Part shown: in pieces, positions 6,741 to 62,521 of the stretch
Position numbering within the stretch: position 1 is the stretch's first letter
Layout of the letters: each line of letters starts with the position of its first letter
NCBI GenBank assembly: GCA_002238855.1
Contig: MPND01000006.1
Span: 35,943 to 99,942, forward strand
DNA: 64,000 bases
Reading direction: 5' to 3'
Source of the DNA: SAR202 cluster bacterium bin90
Lineage (GTDB): Bacteria > Chloroflexota > Dehalococcoidia > Lucifugimonadales > JADFKI01
Position numbers and translations under genes: made by a program
The notes under the pieces: model-generated
The model's input: the letters and a program-made list of their open reading frames with translations, nothing else
Told to the model about the DNA's origin: nothing
Databases searched by the model: none

Positions 6741-7598
6741 ATGAACAAATACGAAGTAGCCCTATCGTTTGCTGGAGAGCAGCGACATTACGTCGAAGAA
6801 GTGGCACGAGGACTTCAGAGCCGAGGAATCGCTGTATTCTACGATGAATTTGAGAAGGTCAGCCTGTGGGGGAAAAGCCTAACTGAGGAGTTTCATAGAA
6901 TATTCGAGAATGATGCTGGGCGAGTTGTCATGTTTATATCAAGAGACTACGTCCAGAAGGCTTGGCCAAGGCATGAACGGCGATCTGTCCTTAGCAAGGC
7001 AGTTCATGAATCAACAGAATATGTACTACCGGTGCGCTTCGACGATACCAAAGTTCCAGGACTGCCTACTGATGTCAGCTACCTGCCTGCAGAGGAATAC
7101 TCGCCCAGTGAACTCGCCGCGATGATCGGAGAGAAATTAGGTGTAACTCGGTTCGCAGCAAAAGCATCCGATGTACCTCCTCCGCGTATGACATCCCTAA
7201 CAGGTGAGGTGGTGTTTGACTACGGAAGCCATAATGGGCGTTTCGTGATAGGGCGAGATGTGCTGGAATTTGAAACAAAGTGGAGTAGGGCGAGCAACAC
7301 GAGCATTTACGTTTACAATGACCCTCCATCGATAAACGGCGTTGCGCTGGCTCCGCGTGACTGCGTGAGCATCGGGAAGGTTGTTGATGCCCAACTTCTC
7401 GATTTCACCTCGCGCAGTCGGACCCCTCAAATCGGGCAGATCGTGATGTTCCGAAACACAAAAGGCTTCTATGCAGCGGTACAGATTCTGGGCATCAAAC
7501 ACGGTGGTCGGGGTGACGACAACTATGAACTGCGCTTTCGTTACGTCATCCAATCTGATGGCTCGGACGACTTCACAAGTTTGAGCACTTCTAACTAA
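6741..7598 (+). CDS. TIR-domain protein with unassigned C-terminal domain of about 150 aa
   Basis: N-terminus YEVALSFAGEQRHYVEEVARGLQSRGIAVFYDEFE...VVMFISRDYVQKAWPRHERRSVL matches the bacterial TIR pattern (S-F-A-G start, FIS..Y...W...E with the conserved Glu). Residues about 140..285 match no family I can name. The gene and its flanks are visibly AT-richer than the neighbours. Confidence 0.75.
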   Translation: MNKYEVALSFAGEQRHYVEEVARGLQSRGIAVFYDEFEKVSLWGKSLTEEFHRIFENDAGRVVMFISRDYVQKAWPRHERRSVLSKAVHESTEYVLPVRFDDTKVPGLPTDVSYLPAEEYSPSELAAMIGEKLGVTRFAAKASDVPPPRMTSLTGEVVFDYGSHNGRFVIGRDVLEFETKWSRASNTSIYVYNDPPSINGVALAPRDCVSIGKVVDAQLLDFTSRSRTPQIGQIVMFRNTKGFYAAVQILGIKHGGRGDDNYELRFRYVIQSDGSDDFTSLSTSN

Positions 7599-7692
7599 GC
7601 TGGTTAGCTATCCCGCTTCGTTGCCGTCCAAGTCCTTAGATGATATAACTGACTCACTGAAAAACAGACCGACTTTCTGGAGGAATTTCCAC

Positions 7693-8634
7693 ATGGCTGA
7701 ATCGGACAAAACATTTCGCATCGCGATAATCGGACAGGCGGCATTCGGGGAGAGCGTGCTCAACGCACTTGTAGAGCACGGCGAGAACATCGTTGGCGTG
7801 TTCTGCCCACCCGACAGGGAAGGCAGGCCTGCCGACCCCATCAAGACCGCCGCCGAGGGACACGACATTCCCGTGCTGCAATACCGCCGCATGCGCAACC
7901 AGGACTGCATAGACGCATTCATGGCGCTGAACGCCGACCTATGCGTGATGGCATTCGTAACCGACATCGTGCCGGACGCCATCCTCGAAGCGCCCACTCA
8001 CGGCACGATCCAGTACCACCCCTCGCTTCTCCCGCTCCATCGCGGTCCGAGCTCCATCAACTGGCCCATAATCATGGGCGACGAGAAGACCGGTCTGACC
8101 ATTTTCTGGCCCGACAAGGGGCTGGACACCGGTCCCATCCTTCTCCAGAAGGAGACGCCCATAAGCCCAGACGACACGCTCGGTTCGGTCTATTTCGGCA
8201 GGCTGTTCCAAATGGGCGTTGACGCGATGGTGGAGTCCGTGGATATGGTGAAGGCCGGCACCGCGCCGCGAATCGAGCAGAACCACGACGACGCCACCTA
8301 CGAGGGCTGGTGCCGCGCCGAAGACGTCATCATCGACTGGGACAAGCCCGTCAGCGAGATATACAACATGATCCGCGGAAGCGACCCCAGCCCCGGCGCA
8401 GGCACAACCTTCGGCGAAGCAGGCATGCGCTTCTTCCGCGCGAGCAGTTCTGACGGCGAAGCAGGCGGCGCGCCCGGCGAGGTCACCGAAATCACCGACG
8501 AGGGCTTCCGCATCGCGGCAAACGGCGGCTCCATATTCGTCGGCAGGGTGCAGCAGGGCCGCGAGCGCAAGGTCAATGCCCCGGAGTGGATAGAAGCAGT
8601 CGGCCTGAAGGTAGGTGACAGGTTCGGGGGCTAG
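7693..8634 (+). CDS. Formyltransferase family protein (Fmt / 10-formyl-THF dehydrogenase N-terminal-like)
   Basis: HPSLLPLHRGPSSINWPIIMGDEKTGLTIFWPDKGLDTGPILLQKE is the formyl-transferase core motif. Start set at ATG 7693, with GGAGG at 7679..7683. Confidence 0.8.
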   Translation: MAESDKTFRIAIIGQAAFGESVLNALVEHGENIVGVFCPPDREGRPADPIKTAAEGHDIPVLQYRRMRNQDCIDAFMALNADLCVMAFVTDIVPDAILEAPTHGTIQYHPSLLPLHRGPSSINWPIIMGDEKTGLTIFWPDKGLDTGPILLQKETPISPDDTLGSVYFGRLFQMGVDAMVESVDMVKAGTAPRIEQNHDDATYEGWCRAEDVIIDWDKPVSEIYNMIRGSDPSPGAGTTFGEAGMRFFRASSSDGEAGGAPGEVTEITDEGFRIAANGGSIFVGRVQQGRERKVNAPEWIEAVGLKVGDRFGG

Positions 8635-37778: not shown

Positions 37779-37878
37779 AGGGAAATCACGCTGTATCCCT
37801 TCACTCTGAATAGGAGAAGATGTGAATCTCAGTCAACCCGAACTCGTGCCAAGCCTTACGCAATCCTAACGAAAAACA

Positions 37879-37931
37879 CCTTCCCCCTTTGATGGGGGAA
37901 GGCTGCGATGGAGGTAAAAATCCTCTCCATC
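37879..37931. repeat. REP-like composite repeat, family A
   Basis: CCTTCCCCC-TTTGAT-GGGGGAAGG (37879..37902), followed by GATGGAGGTAAAAATCCTCTCCATC. Confidence 0.7.
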
Positions 37932-42789: not shown

Positions 42790-42803
42790 CACAATAATTT
42801 ATT

Positions 42804-42851
42804 CCTTCCCCCTCGATGGGGGAAGGTCAGGATGGGGGTGAAATCCTCATC
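42804..42851. repeat. REP-like composite repeat, family A
   Basis: CCTTCCCCC-TCGAT-GGGGGAAGG (42804..42826), then TCAGGATGGGGGTGAAATCCTCATC. Confidence 0.7.
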
Positions 42852-42881: not shown

Positions 42882-43175
42882 ATGCGAAGCATCATCATCG
42901 CAGCAGCAGCCATCATCCTTCTGGCAGCCACGCTCGCCCCCGTTGCCGTGGCAGCCGCCTACGACGGCGCACCCATAGTAAGCTCCACGGTTGAAACGCC
43001 CGCCCAGCAGCAACGCGGCGAAGCCGAACTACCCTGGCTTTTCGCCGTCTATGTCATCACCTGGGCAGCATTCTTCGCCTACGTCTTCATCATGTCCCGC
43101 AGACAGCGCGAAATGCAGCGCGAAATCGACACCCTAAAACGCGCCCTCGATGCTAAAATAGACCCGGAGCAATAG
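42882..43175 (+). CDS. ccmD: CcmD-like small heme exporter protein
   Basis: Single TM helix LFAVYVITWAAFFAYVFIM followed by basic SRRQREMQRE. Its position between ccmC and ccmE supports the call. Start set at ATG 42882. Confidence 0.6.
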   Translation: MRSIIIAAAAIILLAATLAPVAVAAAYDGAPIVSSTVETPAQQQRGEAELPWLFAVYVITWAAFFAYVFIMSRRQREMQREIDTLKRALDAKIDPEQ

Positions 43176-43176
43176 T

Positions 43177-43210
43177 CCCCTCTCCCTGAGGGAGAGGGTT
43201 AGGGCGAGGG
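43177..43210. repeat. REP-like repeat, family A-prime
   Basis: CCCTCTCCC-TGA-GGGAGAGGG-TTAGGGCGAGGGG. Confidence 0.7.
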
Positions 43211-45688: not shown

Positions 45689-45720
45689 TCCCCTTTCTCG
45701 TTCTTTTGCTCTCAATAGTC

Positions 45721-45756
45721 CCCTCTCCCCGCGGGAGAGGGTTAGGATGGGGGTGA
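45721..45756. repeat. REP-like repeat, family A-prime
   Basis: CCCTCTCCC-CGC-GGGAGAGGG-TTAGGATGGGGGTGA. Confidence 0.7.
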
Positions 45757-47619: not shown

Positions 47620-47633
47620 GGCACAAATAAATC

Positions 47634-47672
47634 CCTTCCTCCTTGATGGGGAAAGGCTAGGATGGGGGTGAA
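47634..47672. repeat. REP-like composite repeat, family A (imperfect)
   Basis: CCTTCCTCC-TTGAT-GGGGAAAGG-CTAGGATGGGGGTGA. Confidence 0.65.
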
Positions 47673-47710: not shown

Positions 47711-47986
47711 TCAGCCTCGAATATTCTCCCGCACCCGATCCGCAAATCCGGCAGGCGCAGTCTGCGTCGGCATACCTCGCAGCGCATTAATCGTCTCGCG
47801 CAGCGTGCGGAAGAACGCCTCGCACAAATGGCAGTCGCTCAGGTGCGTGCGAATTCTCGTTTCCAGCGTCGCGTCAAGCTCCCCGTCGATGTAGTCCGAC
47901 GAGTGCGCGCGCGCCTCTTCACAGGGCTGCGGCAATGCGCTGCGCCCAATCAATCTGAGAATGCGGGACCTAAAGGACATCATCAT
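47711..47986 (-). CDS. Soluble zinc-binding (zf-HC2 / ZAS-type) anti-sigma factor
   Basis: C-x26-H-x3-C-x2-C arrangement (PCEEARAH...RTHLSDCHLCEAFF). 91 aa with no TM segment. Divergent from the ECF sigma gene. Confidence 0.65.
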   Translation of the reverse strand: MMMSFRSRILRLIGRSALPQPCEEARAHSSDYIDGELDATLETRIRTHLSDCHLCEAFFRTLRETINALRGMPTQTAPAGFADRVRENIRG

Positions 47987-48103: not shown

Positions 48104-48652
48104 ATGTCTAATCAACACGAAACAACAGCACAAGACTCAGCGCCGGAGACCTTCGACGAAATCGTCGAGGCGTATTCGGACTTCGTGTACAACGTCGCCT
48201 ACAAGATGATGGGCAACCCGCACGACGCCGAAGAAGTCGCGCAGGAAGCCTTTATCTCCGCATTCCGCGCCTTCGACCGCTTTCGTGGAGAGTCCCGCGT
48301 AACCACCTGGCTCTATCGCATCACCGTGAACGCCGCGCTCATGCGAATCAGACGCGAGAAGCGCGCCCGCGAACTGCGCTGGGTCGGCATAGAGAACCTT
48401 GAAGTCCCAAGCTGGGAAGAAGCGCCGGAACCCTCCGCGATCAACTCTGAGCTGGGCGACAAAATTCAGGAAGGCATCGCGATGCTGCAGCCCGAACTCC
48501 GCGCAGCCGTAGTGCTGCGAGATGTCGCAGGCCTGTCCAGCAGGGAAGCCGCCGAAGCCCTCGACATCACCGTCTCATCCCTGAAATCCCGCCTCCACCG
48601 CGCCCGCGTCCTCCTCCGCCAGCACCTCGCCGAATACGCCCCTAGGCGCTAG
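48104..48652 (+). CDS. ECF-subfamily RNA polymerase sigma-70 factor
   Basis: Region 2 DAEEVAQEAFISAFRAFDRFRGESRVTTWLYRITVNAAL and region 4 VVLRDVAGLSSREAAEALDITVSSLKSRLHRAR. Start set at ATG 48104. Confidence 0.85.
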   Translation: MSNQHETTAQDSAPETFDEIVEAYSDFVYNVAYKMMGNPHDAEEVAQEAFISAFRAFDRFRGESRVTTWLYRITVNAALMRIRREKRARELRWVGIENLEVPSWEEAPEPSAINSELGDKIQEGIAMLQPELRAAVVLRDVAGLSSREAAEALDITVSSLKSRLHRARVLLRQHLAEYAPRR

Positions 48653-48657
48653 GCGCC

Positions 48658-48710
48658 ATCGGCGTCAACCGAACCCCAATCACCTCCTCGCACCACGCCG
48701 CAACCGCAAG
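48658..48710 (-). pseudogene. Relic copy of the amidase 3' end
   Basis: By hand alignment, 49 of 53 nt are identical to 49616..49668, the true amidase C-terminal codons. It translates as ILAVAAWCEEVIGVRLTPMA, compared with LLAVAAWCEAVVGVRLTPMG. Confidence 0.7.
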
Positions 48711-48742
48711 AATGGCAATGATTTCCGCGCTGTGTGCGGCTG

Positions 48743-49528
48743 TCAGGACTGCTGTTGGCGCAGGCGAGCAATTTCTTCCAGCAACTCGCGTTCACGCGCC
48801 TCTGATTCATCGGCGCGCGCTGCAGCAGCTTGGGCACGCGCTTCGGCGATTTGGGCACGCGCTTCCTCTTCAGCTATGCGCACTTCGGCAGCTTGGGCAC
48901 GCGCTTCGGCAACGGTGATCCTGTGCAGCGTCATGCCGGTTTCAGGGTCCAGCGCATCGAATTCCTGCCCATCCCAGTGGAACACCAAGTTCAGCAGCTC
49001 GCTGTATCCCCTCAACGAACCATCTTCATCTGCCAGAATCTCATACGGCTGATACACGCCGTCAACCAGCCTCTCGCCCGCAAGCGGCTGCCCGTAATAT
49101 TCGCCGCCCTTATGGTCGAACCGCCAGTATTCCTGCACCCCAAGCCTCTCATACAACTCGCGCTTGTGGCCAAGGTCGTTCGCCGCAGTGCTCTCAGAAG
49201 CCACCTCCATCACGAAATCGGGGACCTTGCCAATCTCCCATACCAAGTAGTTAGGCATTTCGCTATCGCGAATATACACCGCATCCACGCCGAAGGCGAT
49301 GAGGAAGTCCGGAGCGACGCGCCGGTTGCCGTTGGTTTCGTCGTAGAGTATGAACCCTCCCCCGGTGGCAAACACATCCGGGCTGTCTTTGTACATCTCA
49401 AACAGGATGCCTATCACTCGGTACAGGGGTGGAAATTGCAGCACTCGGTCCTCCGGCTCCGGCTCGTCGTAGAAACTCTTGGGATACTTCTCAAGCCAAG
49501 ATTTAGTAACTGTCTTGGTAGTCGCCAT
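48743..49528 (-). CDS. Uma2-family (DUF820) putative endonuclease with C-terminal Ala/Glu/Arg coiled-coil tail
   Basis: RVAPDFLIAFGVD...YLVWEIGKVPDFVMEVASEST...K...GVQEYWRFD fits the Uma2 PD-(D/E)xK pattern. The tail is AEARAQAAEVRIAEEEARAQIAEARAQAAAARA, encoded by the repeated TTGGGCACGCGCTTCGGC. Start at ATG 49528 with GGAGG upstream. Confidence 0.75.
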   Translation of the reverse strand: MATTKTVTKSWLEKYPKSFYDEPEPEDRVLQFPPLYRVIGILFEMYKDSPDVFATGGGFILYDETNGNRRVAPDFLIAFGVDAVYIRDSEMPNYLVWEIGKVPDFVMEVASESTAANDLGHKRELYERLGVQEYWRFDHKGGEYYGQPLAGERLVDGVYQPYEILADEDGSLRGYSELLNLVFHWDGQEFDALDPETGMTLHRITVAEARAQAAEVRIAEEEARAQIAEARAQAAAARADESEARERELLEEIARLRQQQS

Positions 49529-49605
49529 GCGAAGCCTCCGACATCCGTTTATGACTTCCATACGCCTGCATTATAACGCAGCCCCGAGACGAAGTTCATC
49601 ACATA

Positions 49606-50961
49606 CTACGTCCCCATCGGCGTCAACCGCACCCCAACCACCGCCTCGCACCACGCCGCCACCGCAAGCAGCCTCGCCTCCTCGAAGTGCCCCGCCACAA
49701 GCTGCACGCCCAGCGGCATCCCGCCCTCGCTCAGCCCCGACGGCAGCGTAATCTCCGGGAATCCTCCGAACGTCCACGGCGACTGGAACTTCGGATCGCC
49801 CGTAGTCTCGCGGCTCGGCGGCGCAGCAGCAGGAGTAGTCGGCATCAGCAGCGCATCATAGCCCCCAATCGCCGATTGCACACCACGTCTGAACTCACTC
49901 TGCAAATGCTTCGCCTTCAGGTACTCCAGCGCAGGCGTCCCCAACCCCTGCTCGATCAGTCCATGCACATTAGCCGAGAATTCGTCCGCCCGCACCGCAA
50001 AGTTGCCCTCGTGCACCTGCGCCCCCTCCACCGACATCAACGCACGCTGACCCACCAGCGCCGCATCAAAGTCCACCGGCAGCGACACCTCCTCGACCGC
50101 CGCACCCGCATCGCGCAGCTTCTCAGCCATCGATTCCGTGTTCGCGCGCGTCTCATCATCGCACTGCTCCATGAAGAACTGCCGCACCAGCCCGATTCGC
50201 GGCGGCCCGATCTTCGTCTGCGCCGCCCCCAGATAGTCCTCCACAGGTCGCTCCGACGAGTCCGCATCGTTGATGTCATGGCCCGCCAGCACATTCAACA
50301 TCAGTGCCGCATCCTCCACGCTCCGCACCATCGGCCCCATCGTATCCAGCGACTCCGACACCGGATACACGCCATGCCTGCTGACCCGCCCAAACGTCGG
50401 CTTCAGCCCCACAATCCCGTTGTACGAAGATGGCCGCACGATCGATCCCCCGGTCTGCGACCCCAGCGCAGCGGGAAACATCCCCACCGCCGCGCCCACC
50501 GCAGACCCGCTGCTCGACCCGCCCGGCGTATGCACCGCATTCCACGGGCTCACCGTAGGCGAGGGATCCCCGCACGCAAACTCAGTCGTAACCGTCTTGC
50601 CCATTATCACCGCGCCCGCCTGCCTCAGCAGCGCAACCGTCGTCGCGTCATACTCCGGCACAAACTCCGCGTATATCGTCGAGCCGCTAGTCGTCAACAC
50701 TCCCCGCGTGAAGTAGATGTCCTTGATGCCCACCGGCACCCCATGCAGCGGCCCCCGCGCTCCCTCGCTCGCCAGTTCACTGTCCCGCTCCCTCGCCGCC
50801 GCCATCGCAGCATCACCGTCCAGCGTAACCCACACCTTCAGCGCACCATCCAGCGCATCACACCGCGCCAGCAGCGCCTCCATCAGTTCCGCCGCCGACA
50901 CAGCCCTGCTCCGAATCATCCCCGCCGCCTCAACCACCCCAAGCTCATGCATCTCACTCAT
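49606..50961 (-). CDS. Amidase (amidase-signature family, GatA-like)
   Basis: The GGSSSGSA motif and the KD..F context are typical of AS-family amidases. 451 aa. Confidence 0.9.
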   Translation of the reverse strand: MSEMHELGVVEAAGMIRSRAVSAAELMEALLARCDALDGALKVWVTLDGDAAMAAARERDSELASEGARGPLHGVPVGIKDIYFTRGVLTTSGSTIYAEFVPEYDATTVALLRQAGAVIMGKTVTTEFACGDPSPTVSPWNAVHTPGGSSSGSAVGAAVGMFPAALGSQTGGSIVRPSSYNGIVGLKPTFGRVSRHGVYPVSESLDTMGPMVRSVEDAALMLNVLAGHDINDADSSERPVEDYLGAAQTKIGPPRIGLVRQFFMEQCDDETRANTESMAEKLRDAGAAVEEVSLPVDFDAALVGQRALMSVEGAQVHEGNFAVRADEFSANVHGLIEQGLGTPALEYLKAKHLQSEFRRGVQSAIGGYDALLMPTTPAAAPPSRETTGDPKFQSPWTFGGFPEITLPSGLSEGGMPLGVQLVAGHFEEARLLAVAAWCEAVVGVRLTPMGT

Positions 50962-51636: not shown

Positions 51637-51812
51637 AGACCTGCTCAGTCCCCATGTGGCCCCATGTGGCTAGTTGTTCGATGGCGAATTCGCCTTTTTC
51701 AGCGGCATCCACAAGCAACAATCTGTGATATAATCCACCGCAGACATTTAGTCTCATATATGTCTCAGCAGGAAAAAGCGCATTCAGGTAGACGGATGTA
51801 CAGGAGGTGGAG

Positions 51813-52226
51813 ATGGATGCACTAAGACGAGTGGTGGGAGCAGTGTTGCTTCTGACTGCCGTGCTAGTCGGCATATACTTCGTCGTCGACCAGCTTGAAA
51901 TCCTGCCCTTCCTCTGGCCGCCGCTCAACTACTTGATGGCCGTTGCTGCAGCGCTCGGCGTCATCTTCGCCTACCTGCGAAAGCACAGCCTCGAAGCAGC
52001 AGGCCTCGACCGCATCGTAACGCGTCGCTACCTCGAAGCCAACATCCTCTTCTACGGCTTCATCGCAATCGCAATGCTCTTCTTCTGGAACTGGTTCGAC
52101 CTGCTAGTCGATACCGACCCGCAAGACACCGACCGCCACATAGTCTGGATCATCGTCGACACCGTGGGCCCTCTGCTATGGGGCGCGCTCGGCATGCACC
52201 TCCTGCGCGGCGGCAACGACGACTAG
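51813..52226 (+). CDS. Small 4-TM membrane protein, paralog 1 of 3
   Basis: Shares the FFWNWF.LL and W.IVD...P.L.GA.G..LL motifs with the next two genes. AGGAGG lies 6 nt upstream of ATG 51813. Confidence 0.65.
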   Translation: MDALRRVVGAVLLLTAVLVGIYFVVDQLEILPFLWPPLNYLMAVAAALGVIFAYLRKHSLEAAGLDRIVTRRYLEANILFYGFIAIAMLFFWNWFDLLVDTDPQDTDRHIVWIIVDTVGPLLWGALGMHLLRGGNDD

Positions 52227-52237
52227 ACATGCCCGTC

Positions 52238-52257
52238 ATTCCCGCTCAGGCGGGAAT
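52238..52257. repeat. REP-like hairpin, family B
   Basis: ATTCCCG-CTCAGG-CGGGAAT followed by CCAGAG. Same unit as at 12888..12907. Confidence 0.65.
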
Positions 52258-52327
52258 CCAGAGATGGACGCCCGAAGCGGGCAATCGGTAGTGACAACGT
52301 AACCGCAGACGAAAGGAGCGGCAACGC

Positions 52328-52771
52328 ATGGACATCCTCAAGAAAATCGTAGGCATAATCCTGCTCGTGGTAGCGGTAGTAGTAGCCGTACACACCATAG
52401 TAGAACCACTCTACTTCGACAGCAGCCAGTCCGGAAGCGGCAACAGCGAAGGCGTTTGGGCGATCATCAACCCGCTCTCTGCAATAACCGTGATTCTCGG
52501 CCTCATCTTCGGCTACTTGCGCAAGCGCGACGCAGACGCCGCAGACGAAACAACGGTCACCCGCGAATTCCTCACAGCCAACACAATCTTCTTCGGCTTC
52601 CTATTCATCGGCATAATGTTCTTCTGGAACTGGTTCAACCTGCTCAGCCCCGCATTCAACGCCATCGGCCCCGACGCCGTCGCTCTCACATGGATCATCG
52701 TCGACGCAGGCCTGCCCATCCTCGCCGGCGCACTCGGCGTTCACCTCCTCCTCGCTGGCACCGAGGAATAG
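52328..52771 (+). CDS. Small 4-TM membrane protein, paralog 2 of 3
   Basis: MDILKKIVGIILLVVAVVVAVHTIVEPLY...FFWNWFNLLSPAFNAIGPDAVALTWIIVDAGLPILAGALGVHLL. Highly similar to paralog 3. Confidence 0.7.
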   Translation: MDILKKIVGIILLVVAVVVAVHTIVEPLYFDSSQSGSGNSEGVWAIINPLSAITVILGLIFGYLRKRDADAADETTVTREFLTANTIFFGFLFIGIMFFWNWFNLLSPAFNAIGPDAVALTWIIVDAGLPILAGALGVHLLLAGTEE

Positions 52772-52790
52772 GTCGTTGTAGCGCTTAATG

Positions 52791-52815
52791 CCCTTCCCTC
52801 TTTGATAGGGGAAGG
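52791..52815. repeat. REP-like repeat, family A (imperfect)
   Basis: CCCTTCCCTCTTTGATAGGGGAAGG, followed by an AGCCTGTCCC...GGCATGGG module. Confidence 0.55.
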
Positions 52816-52900
52816 TTAAAGCCTGTCCCGGCGAAGGCATGGGATTGCTGCGAAACGGAAATCGCGCTATGGAAGTAGCAGACAAAAGGAGCAACAACTA

Positions 52901-53335
52901 ATGGACATGCTCAAGAAAATCATAGGCATCTTGCTCATCGTCGTCGGTGCCGCCGTCGCCATCCACACCGTAGTCGAGCCGCTCTACCACGCATCGAGCG
53001 AATCCCAGCCATACGCCCCGCTATGGAACATCCTCGACCCCATCATGGCGGTCGCCATCGTCCTGACCATCATCTTCGGCCACATCCGCAAGCGCAACGC
53101 GTGTGCTGAGAATGAGACGGTCGTCACCCGCGAGTTCCTGTCGGCAAATGTCGTCTTCTACGGCATCGTATTCATCGGCATCATCTTCTTCTGGAACTAT
53201 TTCAACCTGCTCAGCCCCGCATACAACGCCATCGGCCCCGACGCCGTCTCCCTCGCATGGATTATCATCGACGCCGCACTCCCACTACTGCTCGGCGCAA
53301 TGGGCGTATCCATGCTCAAAACCGAAGACGCCTGA
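52901..53335 (+). CDS. Small 4-TM membrane protein, paralog 3 of 3
   Basis: MDMLKKIIGILLIVVGAAVAIHTVVEPLY...FFWNYFNLLSPAYNAIGPDAVSLAWIIIDAALPLLLGAMGVSML. Confidence 0.7.
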   Translation: MDMLKKIIGILLIVVGAAVAIHTVVEPLYHASSESQPYAPLWNILDPIMAVAIVLTIIFGHIRKRNACAENETVVTREFLSANVVFYGIVFIGIIFFWNYFNLLSPAYNAIGPDAVSLAWIIIDAALPLLLGAMGVSMLKTEDA

Positions 53336-53383
53336 TCCCTACCAGGCCTGTCCCTTCTCTCTCTGGGTGAGGGCAGCAAAAAA

Positions 53384-53467
53384 CCTTCCCCCTCGATGGG
53401 GGAAGGCTGTAGCCCGTCCTGAGCTTGTCAATGGGATGGGGAAAGGGAGAAAAATTCCTCCCCATCC
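53384..53467. repeat. REP-like composite repeat, family A (full-length)
   Basis: CCTTCCCCC-TCGAT-GGGGGAAGG (53384..53406) plus GGATGGGGA...TCCCCATCC, a 9-bp stem (53434..53467). Confidence 0.7.
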
Positions 53468-60444: not shown

Positions 60445-61620
60445 TTGACACGCATAGAATCCTCGCTCCCATCCCTCCTGATCTCCATCCCCGAAGGCGT
60501 CATCGACCTCGGCTGGGGCCACCCGTCCCCGCATCTGCACCCGACCGACATGCTGCGCCGCGCAACAGAAATCGCCCTTGCTGATGGTACCCCCGTCCCC
60601 CTTCAGTACGGAGCCACACAGGGCTACGGCCCCCTCCTGCACTCCCTCGCCGACTTCCTCACCGCCCAGGAGTCCTACACATCGCCCGTGTCACCCAGCG
60701 AACTCTTCCTAACCGCCGGCGCATCGCAGGCGATAGACCACACCACCACGCTCTTCACGCAGACCGGCGACACCGTGTTCGTCGAAGAGCCGACCTACTA
60801 CCTCATCCAGAGCATCTTCGAGGACCACGGCCTCAATGTCGTAGGCGTCCCCACCGACGCTAACGGCCTGCGTACGGACGCCCTCGAAGCGATGCTAAAC
60901 TCCCCCGACACACCGCGCCCCAGAATGCTATACATCATCCCCACCTACCAGAACCCTAGCGGCAGCGTCCTCCCCGCCGACCGCCGCCGCACCCTCGTCG
61001 AACTCGCACAGCATCACGACTTCCTAGTCCTAGCCGACGAGGTATACAACCTGCTCCATTACGGCACGCCACCTCCCCCACCAATCGCATCCTTCGACGA
61101 CTCCGAAGACGGCTGCGTAATCTCGCTCGGCTCATTCTCCAAGATTCTCGGCCCCGGCCTCCGCACCGGCTGGCTTCAGGCTCGCCCTCCGATAATTCAG
61201 CGCTTCGCCAACGCCGGCCTCACAATCAGCGGCGGCGGCCTCAACCACTTCACATCCACGCTAGTCCACGCCGTCCTCGAACACGGCATGCTGCAAGACA
61301 ACATCGCCCTACTTCGCCGCACCTACGCCCAGCGCGTCTCAGCAATGGCAACGGCCCTCCGCGACCACCTCGGCGACGCCGTCGAGTTCACCGCACCCGG
61401 CGGCGGATACTTCTTCTGGCTCACCTTCACCGACGGCACCAACACCGACGACCTGCTGCCAGTCGCGCAGGAACACGGCGTAAACTACCGCCCCGGCACC
61501 GCCTTCTCCGCATCCAACTCATTCACCAACGCCATCCGCCTCGCCTTCGCCCTCTACGAACCCGACACCCTCACCGAAGGCATCCACCGCATCGCAAAGT
61601 CGCATAGAGAATTGAGATAA
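60445..61620 (+). CDS. PLP-dependent aminotransferase (class I/II fold)
   Basis: YQNPSG and SFSKILGPGLRTGW (PLP lysine) motifs. TTG start. Confidence 0.85.
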   Translation: MTRIESSLPSLLISIPEGVIDLGWGHPSPHLHPTDMLRRATEIALADGTPVPLQYGATQGYGPLLHSLADFLTAQESYTSPVSPSELFLTAGASQAIDHTTTLFTQTGDTVFVEEPTYYLIQSIFEDHGLNVVGVPTDANGLRTDALEAMLNSPDTPRPRMLYIIPTYQNPSGSVLPADRRRTLVELAQHHDFLVLADEVYNLLHYGTPPPPPIASFDDSEDGCVISLGSFSKILGPGLRTGWLQARPPIIQRFANAGLTISGGGLNHFTSTLVHAVLEHGMLQDNIALLRRTYAQRVSAMATALRDHLGDAVEFTAPGGGYFFWLTFTDGTNTDDLLPVAQEHGVNYRPGTAFSASNSFTNAIRLAFALYEPDTLTEGIHRIAKSHRELR

Positions 61621-61682
61621 TATAAGCAAACGGCGAGCGTCCGGTAACAGTTCCGCACAATTCGCGTGTTACTATAGAATGT

Positions 61683-61889
61683 ATGAACGGCAGGGAGTTT
61701 GTCAGGAGAGCCCGACGTTACGCTCGCAGAAATAGATTGATCTTCGACTTTGATCCCACTCGCGGTAAGGGCAGCCATGGCAAGCTCACCATTGGCGGTC
61801 GCAGCACAATCGTACAGCACGGCGAGATTCCACGACGCACTTTCGCCGCAATGCTCAGACAACTCGAAATTCATCGTGAGGAGTTCTAG
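61683..61889 (+). CDS. hicA: HicA-family toxin
   Basis: GREFVRRARRYARRNRLIFDFDPTRGKGSHGKLTIGGRSTIVQHGEIPRRTFAAMLRQLEI. Confidence 0.75.
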   Translation: MNGREFVRRARRYARRNRLIFDFDPTRGKGSHGKLTIGGRSTIVQHGEIPRRTFAAMLRQLEIHREEF

Positions 61890-61892
61890 GCA

Positions 61893-62402
61893 ATGCGATA
61901 TGCATTCCCATGCGACATTGTTTTGGATCACGAAGAGGCAAAGGCTACGGGACGAGAAGCCTATGTGATAACTTTTCCCGATGTTCCCGAAGCGATCTCA
62001 GGCGCCTGGTCCTGGCAAGAGGCTTTGGAGATGGCAGAGGATTGCTTGGCGGTCGCCCTTAGCATTTATGTTGATAAGTGCGAAGACATCCCTACACCCA
62101 GCCCACTCGCCGATGGCCAAGTCCTCATCGCTGTTCCCATCATCGTAGCCGCAAAGCTCACCCTCTACACAGCCATGCGCGAACAGGACCTGAGCGCCCA
62201 AGACCTCAAAGCCAAGTTGGATATGTCCGATCACACTATCCAAACGCTCCTAACCCCTCATCGCTTCTCTCACATCAGCCAGATCGAGCGCGCACTCAAG
62301 GCCGTTGGCCGCTCCCTGATAGTCGAAGACATGGAAACAGGTCTGACGAAACCCTCTCATCATCCCATTATGAAAGAGCGAGATGCAGCACCGGCAGCAT
62401 AG
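61893..62402 (+). CDS. hicB: HicB-family antitoxin with C-terminal HTH
   Basis: YVITFPDVPEAISGAWSWQEALEMAEDCLAVAL (HicB fold), followed by an HTH-like segment TAMREQDLSAQDLKAKLDMSDHTIQTLL. Confidence 0.75.
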   Translation: MRYAFPCDIVLDHEEAKATGREAYVITFPDVPEAISGAWSWQEALEMAEDCLAVALSIYVDKCEDIPTPSPLADGQVLIAVPIIVAAKLTLYTAMREQDLSAQDLKAKLDMSDHTIQTLLTPHRFSHISQIERALKAVGRSLIVEDMETGLTKPSHHPIMKERDAAPAA

Positions 62403-62416
62403 CCGATTCTGAGAGT

Positions 62417-62521
62417 CCCGGCACCGTCTTCACCGCATACAGCACATTTTTCTAACACCATCTGCCCCACTTCGCCCTCTACGAACCCGAAATACTCGCC
62501 GAAGGTATCCGCCGCCGCGCA
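62417..62521 (+). pseudogene. Relic copy of the aminotransferase 3' end
   Basis: Aligns with 61492..61596 over about 105 nt (roughly three quarters identical by hand), including the perfect 20-mer TTCGCCCTCTACGAACCCGA (61546..61565 = 62471..62490). It translates PGTVFTAYSTFF*HHLPHFALYEPEILAEGIRR, compared with PGTAFSASNSFTNAIRLAFALYEPDTLTEGIHR. Confidence 0.75.

What the first reader, a model, noticed from the sequence alone, without database searches (positions are those of the whole stretch)
48649..49668. Uma2-family endonuclease gene flanked by a duplicated amidase 3' end
**Duplication.** On the minus strand the amidase (49606..50961) ends with ...LLAVAAWCEAVVGVRLTPMGT*. After the Uma2 gene (48743..49528), a second copy of those codons appears at 48658..48710. 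By hand count, 49 of 53 nt are identical to 49616..49668. The copy reads ILAVAAWCEEVIGVRLTPMA, has lost its stop, and abuts the sigma-factor stop codon.

**Pattern.** The order is again host gene with an intact 3' end, then a single cargo gene with its own SD, then a relic 3' end.

**Why it matters.** Uma2/DUF820 proteins are PD-(D/E)xK putative endonucleases of unknown role that are hugely amplified in some genomes. Evidence that one copy behaves as inserted cargo with a gene-end duplication is a clue to how the family spreads.
Basis: seen in the sequence. Interest (0 to 1): 0.65.

Follow-up and report, generated by a model that had tools for sequence, protein, structure and literature searches.

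The report
Nuclease gene insertion displaced amidase tail
In a sponge-associated Dehalococcoidia genome, a small self-promoted nuclease gene (Uma2 family) was inserted long ago into the last codons of an amidase gene. The gene end was copied in the process, so the amidase stayed whole and its original end survives downstream as a scar; this is a tidy insertion footprint, not a general signature of how this gene family spreads.

Summary
The repeat is real: 48656-48710 and 49614-49668 match at 51 of 55 nt, flanking a Uma2 gene (PF05685).

Sixteen related genomes were informative at this junction. Six are empty: the amidase stop overlaps the stop of a convergent ECF sigma gene. The window's downstream copy therefore is the original amidase end, with its stop intact at 48643-48645. 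The upstream copy is the new end.

Eight genomes share identical insertion junctions, so this was one old event. Synonymous divergence (dS) reaches 0.9 and dN/dS is 0.05-0.2, so the gene has been kept under selection. The scar decays progressively in other lineages.

The nearest relative lacks Uma2. At the same point it carries a different coiled-coil nuclease gene.

A second tail duplication in the window surrounds a HicAB-like pair.

The same promoter-plus-Uma2 cassette sits in a cobalamin operon in another genome, without any duplication. None of 68 other Uma2 loci shows a host-tail repeat; tandem arrays are what recur.

My reading is cargo-independent recombination, probably homology-anchored illegitimate recombination. 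It resembles Rhs/T6SS tail displacement and e14 in icd. Insertion is well supported; the mechanism is inferred.

The parts
49606..50961 (-). Amidase gene (451 aa), intact. Its last ~20 codons are the 'new' tail.
   Evidence: Pfam PF01425 E 3.6e-97, profile 1-445/445. Orthologs in 17 genomes.
49614..49668 (-). Upstream repeat copy: the functional (new) amidase tail, ending ...TPMGT* at 49606-49608.
   Evidence: All Uma2-bearing genomes end ATG NNN CCN TAG, whereas empty sites end ATG GYG CCT AVC GYC TAG.
49529..49605 (-). Left part of the cassette: terminus (G)GATGAAC at 49600-49594, extended -10 box TGCGTTATAAT (TATAAT at 49575-49570), SD GGAGG at 49539-49535.
   Evidence: Read from sequence. 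The same stretch is conserved at the amidase site in 7 genomes and at the cob site in L112, where 23/23 nt (GGCTTTTGGCTGCGCTATAATGC) match L007. The simple sigma-70 scan did not call it, because there is no -35 match, so the promoter is inferred.
48743..49528 (-). Uma2-family PD-(D/E)xK nuclease gene (261 aa): variable N-terminus, nuclease core, C-terminal heptad-repeat coiled coil.
   Evidence: PF05685 58.7 bits. PDB relatives 6okh and 9y1l. PADLOC candidate defence family PDC-S03, E 2.6e-11. D74, E108 and K122 invariant in 32 homologs. dN/dS 0.05-0.2. Metatranscriptome contigs cover only this ORF.
48793..48910 (-). 21-nt (7-aa, AEARAQA-like) tandem repeats inside the Uma2 C-terminus. Copy number varies between genomes.
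   Evidence: family D1. L005 has 96 nt more. Alignment A1.
48711..48742 (-). 32-nt 3' flank of the cassette (CAGCCGCACACAGCGCGGAAATCATTGCCATT) between the Uma2 stop and the relic.
   Evidence: Conserved, though diverged, in all amidase-site copies except L105. Not shared with the cob-site copy.
48643..48710 (-). Relic: the native amidase tail (55-nt repeat 48656-48710 plus the native last codons APSA and stop TAG at 48645-48643), displaced downstream. It overlaps the sigma gene end.
   Evidence: Collinear with the functional tails of empty-site genomes L010-L014 through the stop and into the sigma gene.
48104..48652 (+). ECF sigma factor gene, convergent. In the native arrangement its stop (48650-48652) overlaps the amidase stop.
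   Evidence: Sigma70_r2, Sigma70_r4_2 and Sigma70_ECF. 182-aa gene calls in public contigs.
47711..47986 (-). zf-HC2 anti-sigma factor gene (context only).
   Evidence: PF13490, E 1e-7.
61492..61620 (+). Second instance: the new (functional) tail of the aminotransferase 60445-61620.
   Evidence: It has N358 and S386 where about 88 orthologs have G and A.
61683..62402 (+). Second instance, cargo: hicA-like (61683-61889) and hicB-like (61893-62402) genes with their own TAnAAT box.
   Evidence: HicA_toxin E 2.6e-4 (below the Pfam cut-off); HicB_lk_antitox E 4e-8.
62417..62521 (+). Second instance: decayed relic of the native aminotransferase tail (79% over 106 nt, with stops and frameshifts), continuous with the native alaS promoter region.
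   Evidence: Empty sites L110 and L111 run from the aminotransferase stop through ~84 nt straight to alaS.

Best explanation
**What it is (shown).** A cassette of about 0.9 kb was inserted once, long ago, into the very end of an amidase gene. The cassette holds its own promoter and 5'UTR, a Uma2-family nuclease gene and a 32-nt 3' flank. The insertion point is where the amidase converges on an ECF sigma gene and overlaps it. The last ~55-63 nt of the amidase now exist twice. The upstream copy completes the amidase. The downstream copy is the native tail, pushed ~0.96 kb away, still carrying its stop and still overlapping the sigma stop.

**What happened afterwards (shown).** The arrangement is inherited in a clade of sponge-associated Dehalococcoidia. 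The Uma2 gene is kept under purifying selection and appears in sponge metatranscriptome contigs. The scar decays in most lineages.

**How it arose (inferred, about 0.4-0.45).** A DNA fragment carrying 'amidase tail + cassette' was integrated by the host's own recombination. One end was anchored by homology in the amidase body. The other end joined illegitimately just upstream of the resident tail. This is homology-facilitated illegitimate recombination (HFIR). Only products that left both the amidase and the sigma 3' end intact survived. Uma2 did not catalyse the event.

**What the repeats allow (inferred).** The two repeats allow gene conversion, precise loss of the cassette (probably what happened in L008), and movement of the cassette between related genomes by ordinary homologous recombination. 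The junction therefore behaves as a small recombination hot spot that also accepts another nuclease gene.
For: - **Empty sites.** L010-L014 and L020 have the amidase stop overlapping the sigma stop (...CCGATGGTGCCTACCGCCTAGGGGCGTATTC). The window relic ...CCGATGGCGCCTAGCGCCTAGGGGCGTATTC is collinear with this through the stop.
- **One event.** The window, L005, L016 (= L006), L007, L009, L017 and L105 share the left junction (TAG-NAT-GGGATGAAC). All but L105 share the right junction (...GAAATCAYYGCC-TTGCGG).
- **Old and functional.** The Uma2 tree is roughly congruent with flanking-gene trees. Uma2 dS is about equal to flank dS (0.34-1.0), and dN/dS is 0.05-0.2.
- **Relic decay series.** Full length in the window and L005; a shared ~37-nt internal deletion in L016, L007, L009 and L017; only the last ~17 nt, fused to the Uma2 ORF, in L105.
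- **Independent of the cargo.** The HicAB case has the same anatomy, and its relic is continuous with the native alaS promoter. Its new tail carries N358/S386 where about 88 orthologs have G/A, while the L109 relic keeps the common codons. This suggests the tail arrived with the cargo.
- **No mobility machinery.** No integrase, transposase or terminal inverted repeats lie in or beside the insert.
- **Recombination is active here.** Identity between the window and L005 is mosaic, 67-100% across 11 kb. The Uma2 core has 5 differences in 510 nt (dS 0.044, against 0.21-0.32 in the flanks), while the 5'UTR and N-terminus are of another allele type.
- **Hot spot.** L008 and L015 carry a different nuclease gene at the same point, and L005 carries both.
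- **Loss.** L008 is the nearest relative of the window in three flanking genes, lacks Uma2 and has a single native-type tail.
- **Expression.** Metatranscriptome contigs cover 48746-49084 and 49279-49516 only.
- **Precedent.** HFIR has been proposed for the analogous T6SS/Rhs tail displacements (PMC5361080).
Against: - The original event is too old to show a donor tract. At the Uma2 site the two tail copies are almost identical (4 differences), which fits fill-in of a staggered break equally well.
- HFIR needs a donor that already had the cassette behind an amidase tail, so it pushes the first insertion back one step.
- Natural competence is unknown in these uncultured bacteria.
- The window relic is only 1-2 nt from the consensus of functional tails despite the age of the insertion. 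This needs an extra assumption: gene conversion, or refreshment by recombination with an empty-site allele.
- No excised (joined) form was seen in contigs of 8 runs. Contigs drop rare variants, so this is weak evidence.
- The empty cob site could not be fetched, so the exact ends of the mobile unit rest on one two-site comparison.
Confidence: 0.6

Rival explanations
1. Staggered-break insertion. Two nicks ~60 nt apart in the amidase tail gave long overhangs. The cassette was captured between them (end joining or template switching), and fill-in duplicated the target. On this reading the repeat is a very long target-site duplication.
For: The anatomy is exactly target-insert-target. The two copies differ at only 4/55 (window) and 5/54 (L005) positions, and their inferred ancestors could have been identical. 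The 3-5 nt between the new stop and the cassette terminus GGGATGAAC, and the 32-nt 3' flank that is absent at the cob site, look like filler.
Against: The two scars in the window differ in length (~60 vs ~105-130 nt), so the stagger is not fixed. In the HicAB case the new tail differs from the native type at otherwise conserved residues, and the homology ends exactly at the stop codon. The same cassette at the cob site and cargo B at the same junction show no duplication.
Confidence: 0.2
2. Site-specific integration of a larger integrative element whose attP mimicked the amidase tail, as e14 and phage 21 do in icd. The element later decayed until only Uma2 was left.
For: The footprint is identical to icd/e14/icdC: the gene is completed by an element-borne tail and the native tail is left as a pseudogene on the far side (PMC13626634).
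Against: No integrase, excisionase or other element genes are present in any of 8 filled genomes. In every one the insert is the single Uma2 gene, plus cargo B in L005. No phage contig carries this tail or this Uma2 subfamily. The HicAB insert is also only ~0.8 kb.
Confidence: 0.08
3. Uma2 is a homing-type selfish nuclease. It cuts the empty amidase/sigma junction, and break repair copies the gene in. The duplicated, slightly altered tail protects the filled allele from cutting.
For: The cargo is a PD-(D/E)xK nuclease with conserved catalytic residues. There is presence/absence polymorphism at one precise site among close relatives. The Uma2 core is near-identical between genomes that differ by 7% in the flanks. 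A close copy sits at a second site.
Against: The near-identical tract lies inside the gene and excludes both repeats and flanks, the opposite of the co-conversion expected from homing. The same scar surrounds a HicAB pair. For most pairs Uma2 dS equals flank dS, which indicates long vertical residence. No host-tail repeats were found at 68 + 3 other Uma2 loci. The window's new tail differs from its relic at only 4 of 55 positions, and in other Uma2-bearing genomes (L007, L017) the new tail differs from the window relic at only 2-3, so it would not obviously escape cleavage.
Confidence: 0.07
4. The relic is the remnant of a second, tandem amidase paralog that decayed, or the repeat is an assembly artefact.
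For: None beyond the repeat itself. One distant genome (L024) does have a second amidase copy, but it is inverted and ~5 kb away.
Against: Six empty-site genomes have no room for a paralog, because the stops overlap. The relic is collinear with the native tail and with the sigma overlap. The structure is spanned by contigs from several independent runs and assemblies.
Confidence: 0.02

Closest known systems
C-terminal displacement with orphan tails in Rhs, CdiA and T6SS effector-immunity loci (Jackson et al. 2009; Poole et al. 2011, PMC3150448; Kirchberger et al. 2017, PMC5361080)
   Same: A conserved gene body receives a new 3' end together with a linked downstream gene. The former 3' end is pushed downstream and survives as a fragment that shares a short homologous stretch with the gene. 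No recombinase is present in the insert. HFIR followed by ordinary homologous recombination is the proposed route.
   Different: In those systems the tail is a polymorphic toxin domain, the linked gene is its immunity protein, and displacement is adaptive. Here the tail is ~20 ordinary residues of a metabolic enzyme, essentially unchanged, and the cargo is an unrelated nuclease (or a TA pair). The duplication is a by-product.
e14 / phage 21 integration into icd of E. coli, leaving the icdC pseudogene (Hill et al. 1989; PMC13626634)
   Same: The element inserts into the 3' end of a housekeeping gene and supplies a replacement tail, and the native tail remains as a pseudogene at the other end. 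Recombination between the copies removes the element and makes a chimeric but functional gene. This matches what L008 looks like.
   Different: e14 is a 15-kb prophage with its own integrase and a defined att core. Here the insert is one gene of 0.9 kb with no recombinase.
Minimal mobile elements / recombination hot spots between conserved flanking genes (Neisseria; recalled from memory, Saunders and Snyder 2002)
   Same: One junction between two conserved genes is empty or holds alternative small cargos in related genomes (empty, Uma2, cargo B, or both). There are no mobility genes, and exchange is by homologous recombination in the flanks.
   Different: Tail duplication is not a described feature of those elements. 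Competence and transformation are unknown in these Dehalococcoidia.
Free-standing homing endonuclease genes fused to or following a duplicated gene C-terminus in organelle genomes (e.g. Allomyces atp6; recalled from memory)
   Same: A nuclease ORF lies behind a gene whose C-terminal codons are duplicated, with the native tail displaced.
   Different: There the nuclease is thought to drive the insertion. Here the evidence points away from that: same scar with other cargo, no co-conversion, long vertical residence.
Uma2 / DUF820 / TT1808 family, PF05685 (Steczkiewicz et al. 2012, PMC3424549)
   Same: The cargo is a clear member: a predicted PD-(D/E)xK nuclease of unknown role with lineage-specific expansions.
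   Different: This subfamily has a C-terminal heptad-repeat coiled coil of variable length and travels with its own promoter.

Membership tests
Uma2 family (PF05685) | Sequence match to the family profile above the curated cut-off | tested here: met
   58.7 bits vs cut-off 27, E 6.8e-16. PDB relatives 6okh and 9y1l, 'putative restriction endonuclease domain'.
Uma2 family (PF05685) | Conserved PD-(D/E)xK-type catalytic residues | tested here: met
   P73-D74, E108 (MEVAS) and K122 are invariant in 32 homologs of 54-95% identity.
Uma2 family (PF05685) | Nuclease activity | not testable with these tools
   No biochemical data. The family is only 'predicted endonuclease' in the literature.
C-terminal displacement loci (Rhs/CDI/T6SS effector-immunity) | New 3' end plus linked gene, with the old 3' end retained downstream and sharing a homologous stretch | tested here: met
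   Uma2 site; HicAB site.
C-terminal displacement loci (Rhs/CDI/T6SS effector-immunity) | The variable tail encodes a toxin domain and the linked gene its immunity protein | tested here: not met
   The tail is the last ~20 residues of an amidase, nearly identical in both copies. The linked gene is a nuclease. So this works like that family but is not a member.
Integrase-borne element in a gene 3' end (e14/icd type) | Direct repeat of the gene tail at both ends of the insert | tested here: met
Integrase-borne element in a gene 3' end (e14/icd type) | Tyrosine or serine recombinase encoded in the element | tested here: not met
   The only ORF with family support between the repeats is Uma2. The same holds in 8 genomes.
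Transposon / insertion sequence | Transposase, terminal inverted repeats, and a short fixed-length target duplication | tested here: not met
   No transposase and no terminal inverted repeats (pairs I1-I4 are unrelated). Repeats are 55-63 and ~105-130 nt. The cob-site copy has no repeat.
Homing endonuclease gene | Presence/absence polymorphism at one precise site among relatives | tested here: met
Homing endonuclease gene | Co-conversion of flanks; gene younger than its surroundings | tested here: not met
   Uma2 dS is about equal to flank dS for 20 of 21 pairs. The one recent tract (window vs L005) is internal to the ORF and excludes the repeats.
Homing endonuclease gene | Cleaves the empty target site | not testable with these tools
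   Needs an enzyme assay.
Recombination hot spot / minimal mobile element | Alternative cargos or none between the same conserved flanking genes, with no mobility genes | tested here: met
   Empty (6 genomes), Uma2 (7), cargo B (2, plus 24 contigs carrying P0256) and both (1).
Recombination hot spot / minimal mobile element | Transfer by homologous recombination in the flanks | tested here: inconclusive
   Mosaic identity and allele swaps are seen. Cargo B occurs in two clades at the same point. No transfer event was delimited end to end.
Anti-phage defence gene (PADLOC candidate PDC-S03) | Profile match to the candidate family | tested here: met
   E 2.6e-11, partial coverage (residues 66-136). 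The family is itself only a candidate.
HicAB toxin-antitoxin (second instance) | HicA and HicB profile matches in adjacent genes | tested here: inconclusive
   HicB_lk 33.8 bits is above the cut-off of 27. HicA 21.5 bits is below the cut-off of 27.

The most novel reading that the evidence does not exclude
Sponge-associated Dehalococcoidia may have a recombinase-free way of acquiring small defence-type cassettes (nucleases, TA pairs). The incoming DNA would carry a copy of the target gene's tail as a portable homology arm. The resulting direct repeats would then serve for precise loss, re-insertion and spread by ordinary recombination. Two scars in 64 kb would scale to dozens per genome, making tail displacement a general, lineage-wide mode of accessory-gene turnover rather than a peculiarity of toxin loci.
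Probability: 0.15. Interest if true: 0.65.

Novelty: new variant of a known kind. Interest (0 to 1): 0.4.

Why it matters
This is a well-resolved natural example of how a compact bacterial genome with overlapping gene ends can take in a foreign gene without damaging either neighbour. Empty, filled, doubly filled and decayed alleles are all at hand.

It extends the 'displaced tail' footprint, known from polymorphic-toxin loci and from prophages in icd, to ordinary enzyme genes and single-gene cargo that carries no recombinase.

For the Uma2 family it gives three concrete facts:
- a defined mobile unit (promoter + ORF, left end GGGATGAAC) found at two chromosomal sites;
- long-term purifying selection and expression;
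- tandem duplication, not tail-duplicating insertion, as the recurrent mode of amplification.

It does not reveal what Uma2 proteins do. The link to a candidate defence family, and to a second nuclease cargo at the same hot spot, makes a phage-defence test reasonable.

Tried and rejected
- **Flanking repeats at other Uma2 loci.** A scan of 68 diverse Uma2 loci (80 were fetched; 68 had enough flanking sequence) gave four hits. Three were tandem Uma2 arrays and one a 46-nt intergenic repeat. None was a host-gene tail.
- **Paralog site** gyrB-acetyltransferase-Uma2 (L106-L108): no repeat.
- **Terminal inverted repeats or att-like cores** around the insert: none.
- **RNA structure** in the relic or the functional tail, either strand: z-scores -0.6 to +1.2, so no signal.
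- **Phage or plasmid origin.** No viral contig carries the amidase tail pattern or this Uma2 subfamily. No phage record matched and only one cyanobacterial plasmid did.
- **Homology between Uma2 and cargo B:** hhalign probability 0.06%, so rejected. Cargo B nevertheless has its own PD-(D/E)xK-like domain by fold.
- **Excised or empty alleles in the same metagenomes:** no joints in contigs of 8 runs.
- **Similarity of the two cargos' promoter regions (TGCGCTATAATG).** I judged this to be the ordinary extended -10 box of these genomes, not shared ancestry, because alaS and hicA have similar boxes.
- **Empty cob-operon site.** This could not be obtained.
- **A donor tract in the amidase body next to the insert:** not detectable, because the event is too old.


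Full report
**1. The observation.** The window holds a 55-nt direct repeat, 48656-48710 and 49614-49668. It is 51/55 identical with start-to-start spacing of 958 nt, and a self-BLASTN gives E 6e-16. On the minus strand the order is:
- amidase 49606-50961 (PF01425, full profile);
- a 77-nt spacer;
- a 261-aa ORF, 48743-49528, that matches Pfam Uma2 (58.7 bits; cut-off 27);
- 32 nt;
- the second repeat copy;
- the stop of a convergent ECF sigma gene at 48650-48652.

Four public assemblies and contigs from five sponge-metagenome runs carry the same structure.

**2. Which copy is the original.** A scan of species-representative genomes with the amidase returned 17 loci from Dehalococcoidia MAGs, and three more came from look-ups of Uma2 homologs.
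- In six genomes (L010-L014, L020) there is no intergenic DNA. The amidase ends ...CCG ATG GTG CCT ACC GCC TAG, and this TAG overlaps the sigma stop on the other strand (...GCCTAGGGGCGTATTC).
- The window's downstream copy continues ...CCG ATG GCG CCT AGC GCC TAG GGGCGTATTC. This is the same sequence, frame, stop and sigma overlap.
- The 'relic' is therefore the native amidase end, stop included (48645-48643). The end now used by the amidase (...PMGT*, 49606-49608) is the new one.
- The decayed-paralog alternative is excluded.

**3. One old insertion, then decay of the scar.**
- Uma2 occupies this junction in the window, L005, L016 (= L006), L007, L009, L017 and L105. All share the left junction (new stop, 3-5 nt, then GGGATGAAC...TGCGCTATAATG...GGAGG...ATG). 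All except L105 share the right junction (...GAAATCAYYGCC.TT|TTGCGG).
- Trees of the amidase, ETF, sigma and PNPOx genes place these genomes together, and the Uma2 tree is roughly congruent.
- Pairwise dS of the Uma2 core (0.34-1.0) tracks that of the flanking genes. dN/dS is 0.05-0.2.
- The scar forms a series: full length in the window and L005 (49/54 in L005); one shared ~37-nt internal deletion in L016, L007, L009 and L017; only the last ~17 nt in L105, where the Uma2 ORF has run into them and ends ...QQQTNA* on the old amidase stop.
- Metatranscriptome contigs from a sponge sample cover the Uma2 ORF only (48746-49084 and 49279-49516), not its neighbours. This fits an own promoter, but it is weak evidence.

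**4. The junction is a hot spot.**
- L008 is the nearest relative of the window in ETF, sigma and PNPOx (93-97% DNA identity). It has no Uma2.
- L008 instead carries a 241-aa gene ('cargo B') inserted exactly at the overlapping stops, with no duplication (...TCTAGCG|ATTGAACGG...GCGCTGA|GGGGCG). L015, from the otherwise empty clade, has cargo B at the same point. L005 has amidase-Uma2-relic-cargo B-sigma.
- One cargo B protein is found on 24 contigs, always at this junction.
- Cargo B has no Pfam family. An AlphaFold model (pLDDT 88) shows a ~100-residue helix followed by a domain that Foldseek matches to NucS/EndoMS, MspJI and Cap4 nuclease domains (best E 9e-4). D163, E182, S184 and T186 are invariant.
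- Cargo B is not homologous to Uma2 by profile comparison.
- Uma2 itself matches a PADLOC candidate defence family (PDC-S03, E 2.6e-11).
- L008's single tail looks like a join of a functional-type left part and a relic-type right part. This is what recombination between the two repeats would leave, but only a few sites are informative, so it remains an inference.

**5. The scar is not specific to Uma2.**
- In the same window the aminotransferase 60445-61620 has its last ~105-130 nt repeated at 62417-62521 (79% over 106 nt). A hicA-like and a hicB-like gene lie in between.
- Two related genomes (L110, L111) have the empty site, with the aminotransferase stop followed by 84 nt and then alaS. The window relic is continuous with that native alaS promoter region.
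- Here the new tail differs from the native type. It has N358 and S386 where about 88 orthologs have G and A, while the relic in L109 still has the common GGCGCA codons.
- This favours a tail that came in with the cargo over a copy made from the resident tail.

**6. Nor is the scar typical of Uma2.**
- A Uma2 that is 92% identical over the core to the L007 copy (dS 0.48) lies in another genome between cobD and an aminotransferase of a cobalamin operon (L112). By its aminotransferase (96%), that genome belongs with the empty-site L010 lineage.
- DNA shared with the amidase-site cassettes begins at GGGATGAAC, with 23/23 identical nucleotides across the promoter compared with L007, and ends at the Uma2 stop. 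The cobD stop lies inside GGGATGAAC, and the next gene starts 7 nt after the Uma2 stop. Both neighbours are full length, and there is no flanking repeat.
- The unit that moves is therefore promoter + 5'UTR + ORF, and it can insert without any duplication.
- A more distant paralog (57% identical) sits behind an acetyltransferase next to gyrB in two genomes, again without a repeat.
- Among 68 diverse Uma2 loci from metagenomes, the only strong flanking repeats were tandem Uma2 arrays (L030/L032/L038, L078; L052 by an HMM count) and one intergenic repeat.
- This subfamily is absent from phage collections and nearly absent from plasmids.

**7. Recombination inside the cassette.** Between the window and L005 the amidase differs at about 7% of sites. 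The Uma2 core (49400-48890) differs at only 5 of 510, with 346 nt identical (dS 0.044, against 0.21-0.32 in the flanks). The 5'UTR and first 36 codons are far more diverged (dS 0.89), and the L005 version resembles L017. These are recombination patches. They exclude both repeats, so they are not transfers of the whole cassette and are not what homing would leave.

**8. Mechanism.**
- Shown: insertion; displacement of the native tail; a single origin; decay of the scar; alternative cargos at the junction; independence from the cargo's identity; no recombinase or transposase.
- Inferred as most likely (0.4-0.45): homology-facilitated illegitimate recombination of a fragment carrying 'gene tail + cassette', filtered by selection for intact neighbours. 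This is the route proposed for the analogous displacement of T6SS and Rhs tails (PMC5361080).
- A staggered break with fill-in (about 0.2) fits the Uma2 site equally well, but fits the HicAB tail less well.
- An e14-like element that has since decayed (about 0.08), and Uma2-driven homing (about 0.07), are disfavoured for the reasons above.

**9. What remains unexplained.**
- The window relic is only 1-2 nt from the consensus of functional tails, although the insertion predates splits with dS 0.5-0.9.
- The 32-nt non-coding flank next to it has diverged about 22% between the window and L016.
- Gene conversion from the functional copy, or refreshment by recombination with an empty-site allele, would account for the relic's preservation. 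Neither is shown.
- There is no RNA-structure signal in the relic.

**10. Verdict.**
- This is a real and well-documented insertion footprint.
- It is a new variant of a known kind (tail displacement).
- It is informative about genome plasticity in these symbionts.
- It defines the mobile unit of one Uma2 lineage.
- It is not evidence that Uma2 genes spread by duplicating host gene ends.

Noticed in passing
window 61492-62521: Second gene-tail duplication: an aminotransferase tail is repeated around a hicA-like/hicB-like pair. Empty sites exist in L110 and L111, and the relic is continuous with the native alaS promoter.
   Followed up: yes
L008 7415-8140; L015 ~7436-8077; L005 6037-6804; L113-L118 2501-3163: 'Cargo B' is an unannotated 213-255-aa protein family: a long N-terminal helix plus a C-terminal PD-(D/E)xK-like domain (NucS/EndoMS-like by fold). 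It is always inserted at the overlapping amidase/sigma stops, has its own TATAAT box, and causes no duplication. About 40 homologs were found, all without names.
   Followed up: partly
L112 2930-3793: The same promoter + Uma2 cassette sits inside a cobalamin biosynthesis operon (cobD-Uma2-aminotransferase) in a genome of the empty-amidase-site lineage. The cobD stop codon lies in the cassette terminus GGGATGAAC. The empty cob site could not be fetched.
   Followed up: partly
window 48793-48910: 21-nt (heptad, AEARAQA-like) tandem repeats encode the Uma2 C-terminal coiled coil. Copy number differs between genomes: L005 has 96 nt more and P0004 has more still.
   Followed up: partly
window 49361-49015 vs L005: A 346-nt stretch of the Uma2 core is identical between two genomes whose flanking genes differ by ~7%. 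The 5'UTR and first 36 codons belong to different allele types. These are recombination patches inside the cargo.
   Followed up: yes
window 37872-37918, 42796-42842, 47626-47672; 43170-43210, 45713-45753: Two families of REP-like palindromic intergenic repeats (e.g. CCTTCCCCCTCGATGGGGGAAGG...GGATGGGGGTGAA). The related loci L009-L020 show many 35-55-nt intergenic repeats of the same general kind.
   Followed up: no
window 51807-53400: Three tandem paralogous genes for ~140-aa membrane proteins (70-77% DNA identity). The array is conserved in all related loci.
   Followed up: no
L030, L032, L038 (up to 4 copies), L052, L078: Tandem same-strand arrays of Uma2 paralogs with ~1-1.2 kb period occur in other bacteria, several from sponge metagenomes. 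This is the recurrent amplification pattern in the survey.
   Followed up: partly
L049 1-69 = 1195-1263; L063 1-99 = 2447-2545: Two short metagenome contigs holding one Uma2 ORF each have identical ends. They are either small circular molecules or, more likely, collapsed tandem arrays.
   Followed up: no
window 48643 (run X6, labelled 'viral metagenome'): A contig in run X6 leaves the window sequence at the sigma stop and continues into the cargo B 3' end. Cargo-B alleles therefore co-occur with Uma2 alleles in natural populations.
   Followed up: no
L024 7384-8125, 9337-9436, 10596-10982, 12032-13354: In a distant relative the amidase is followed by ~260-nt tandem repeats, dispersed copies of them, and a second, inverted amidase paralog.
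   Followed up: no
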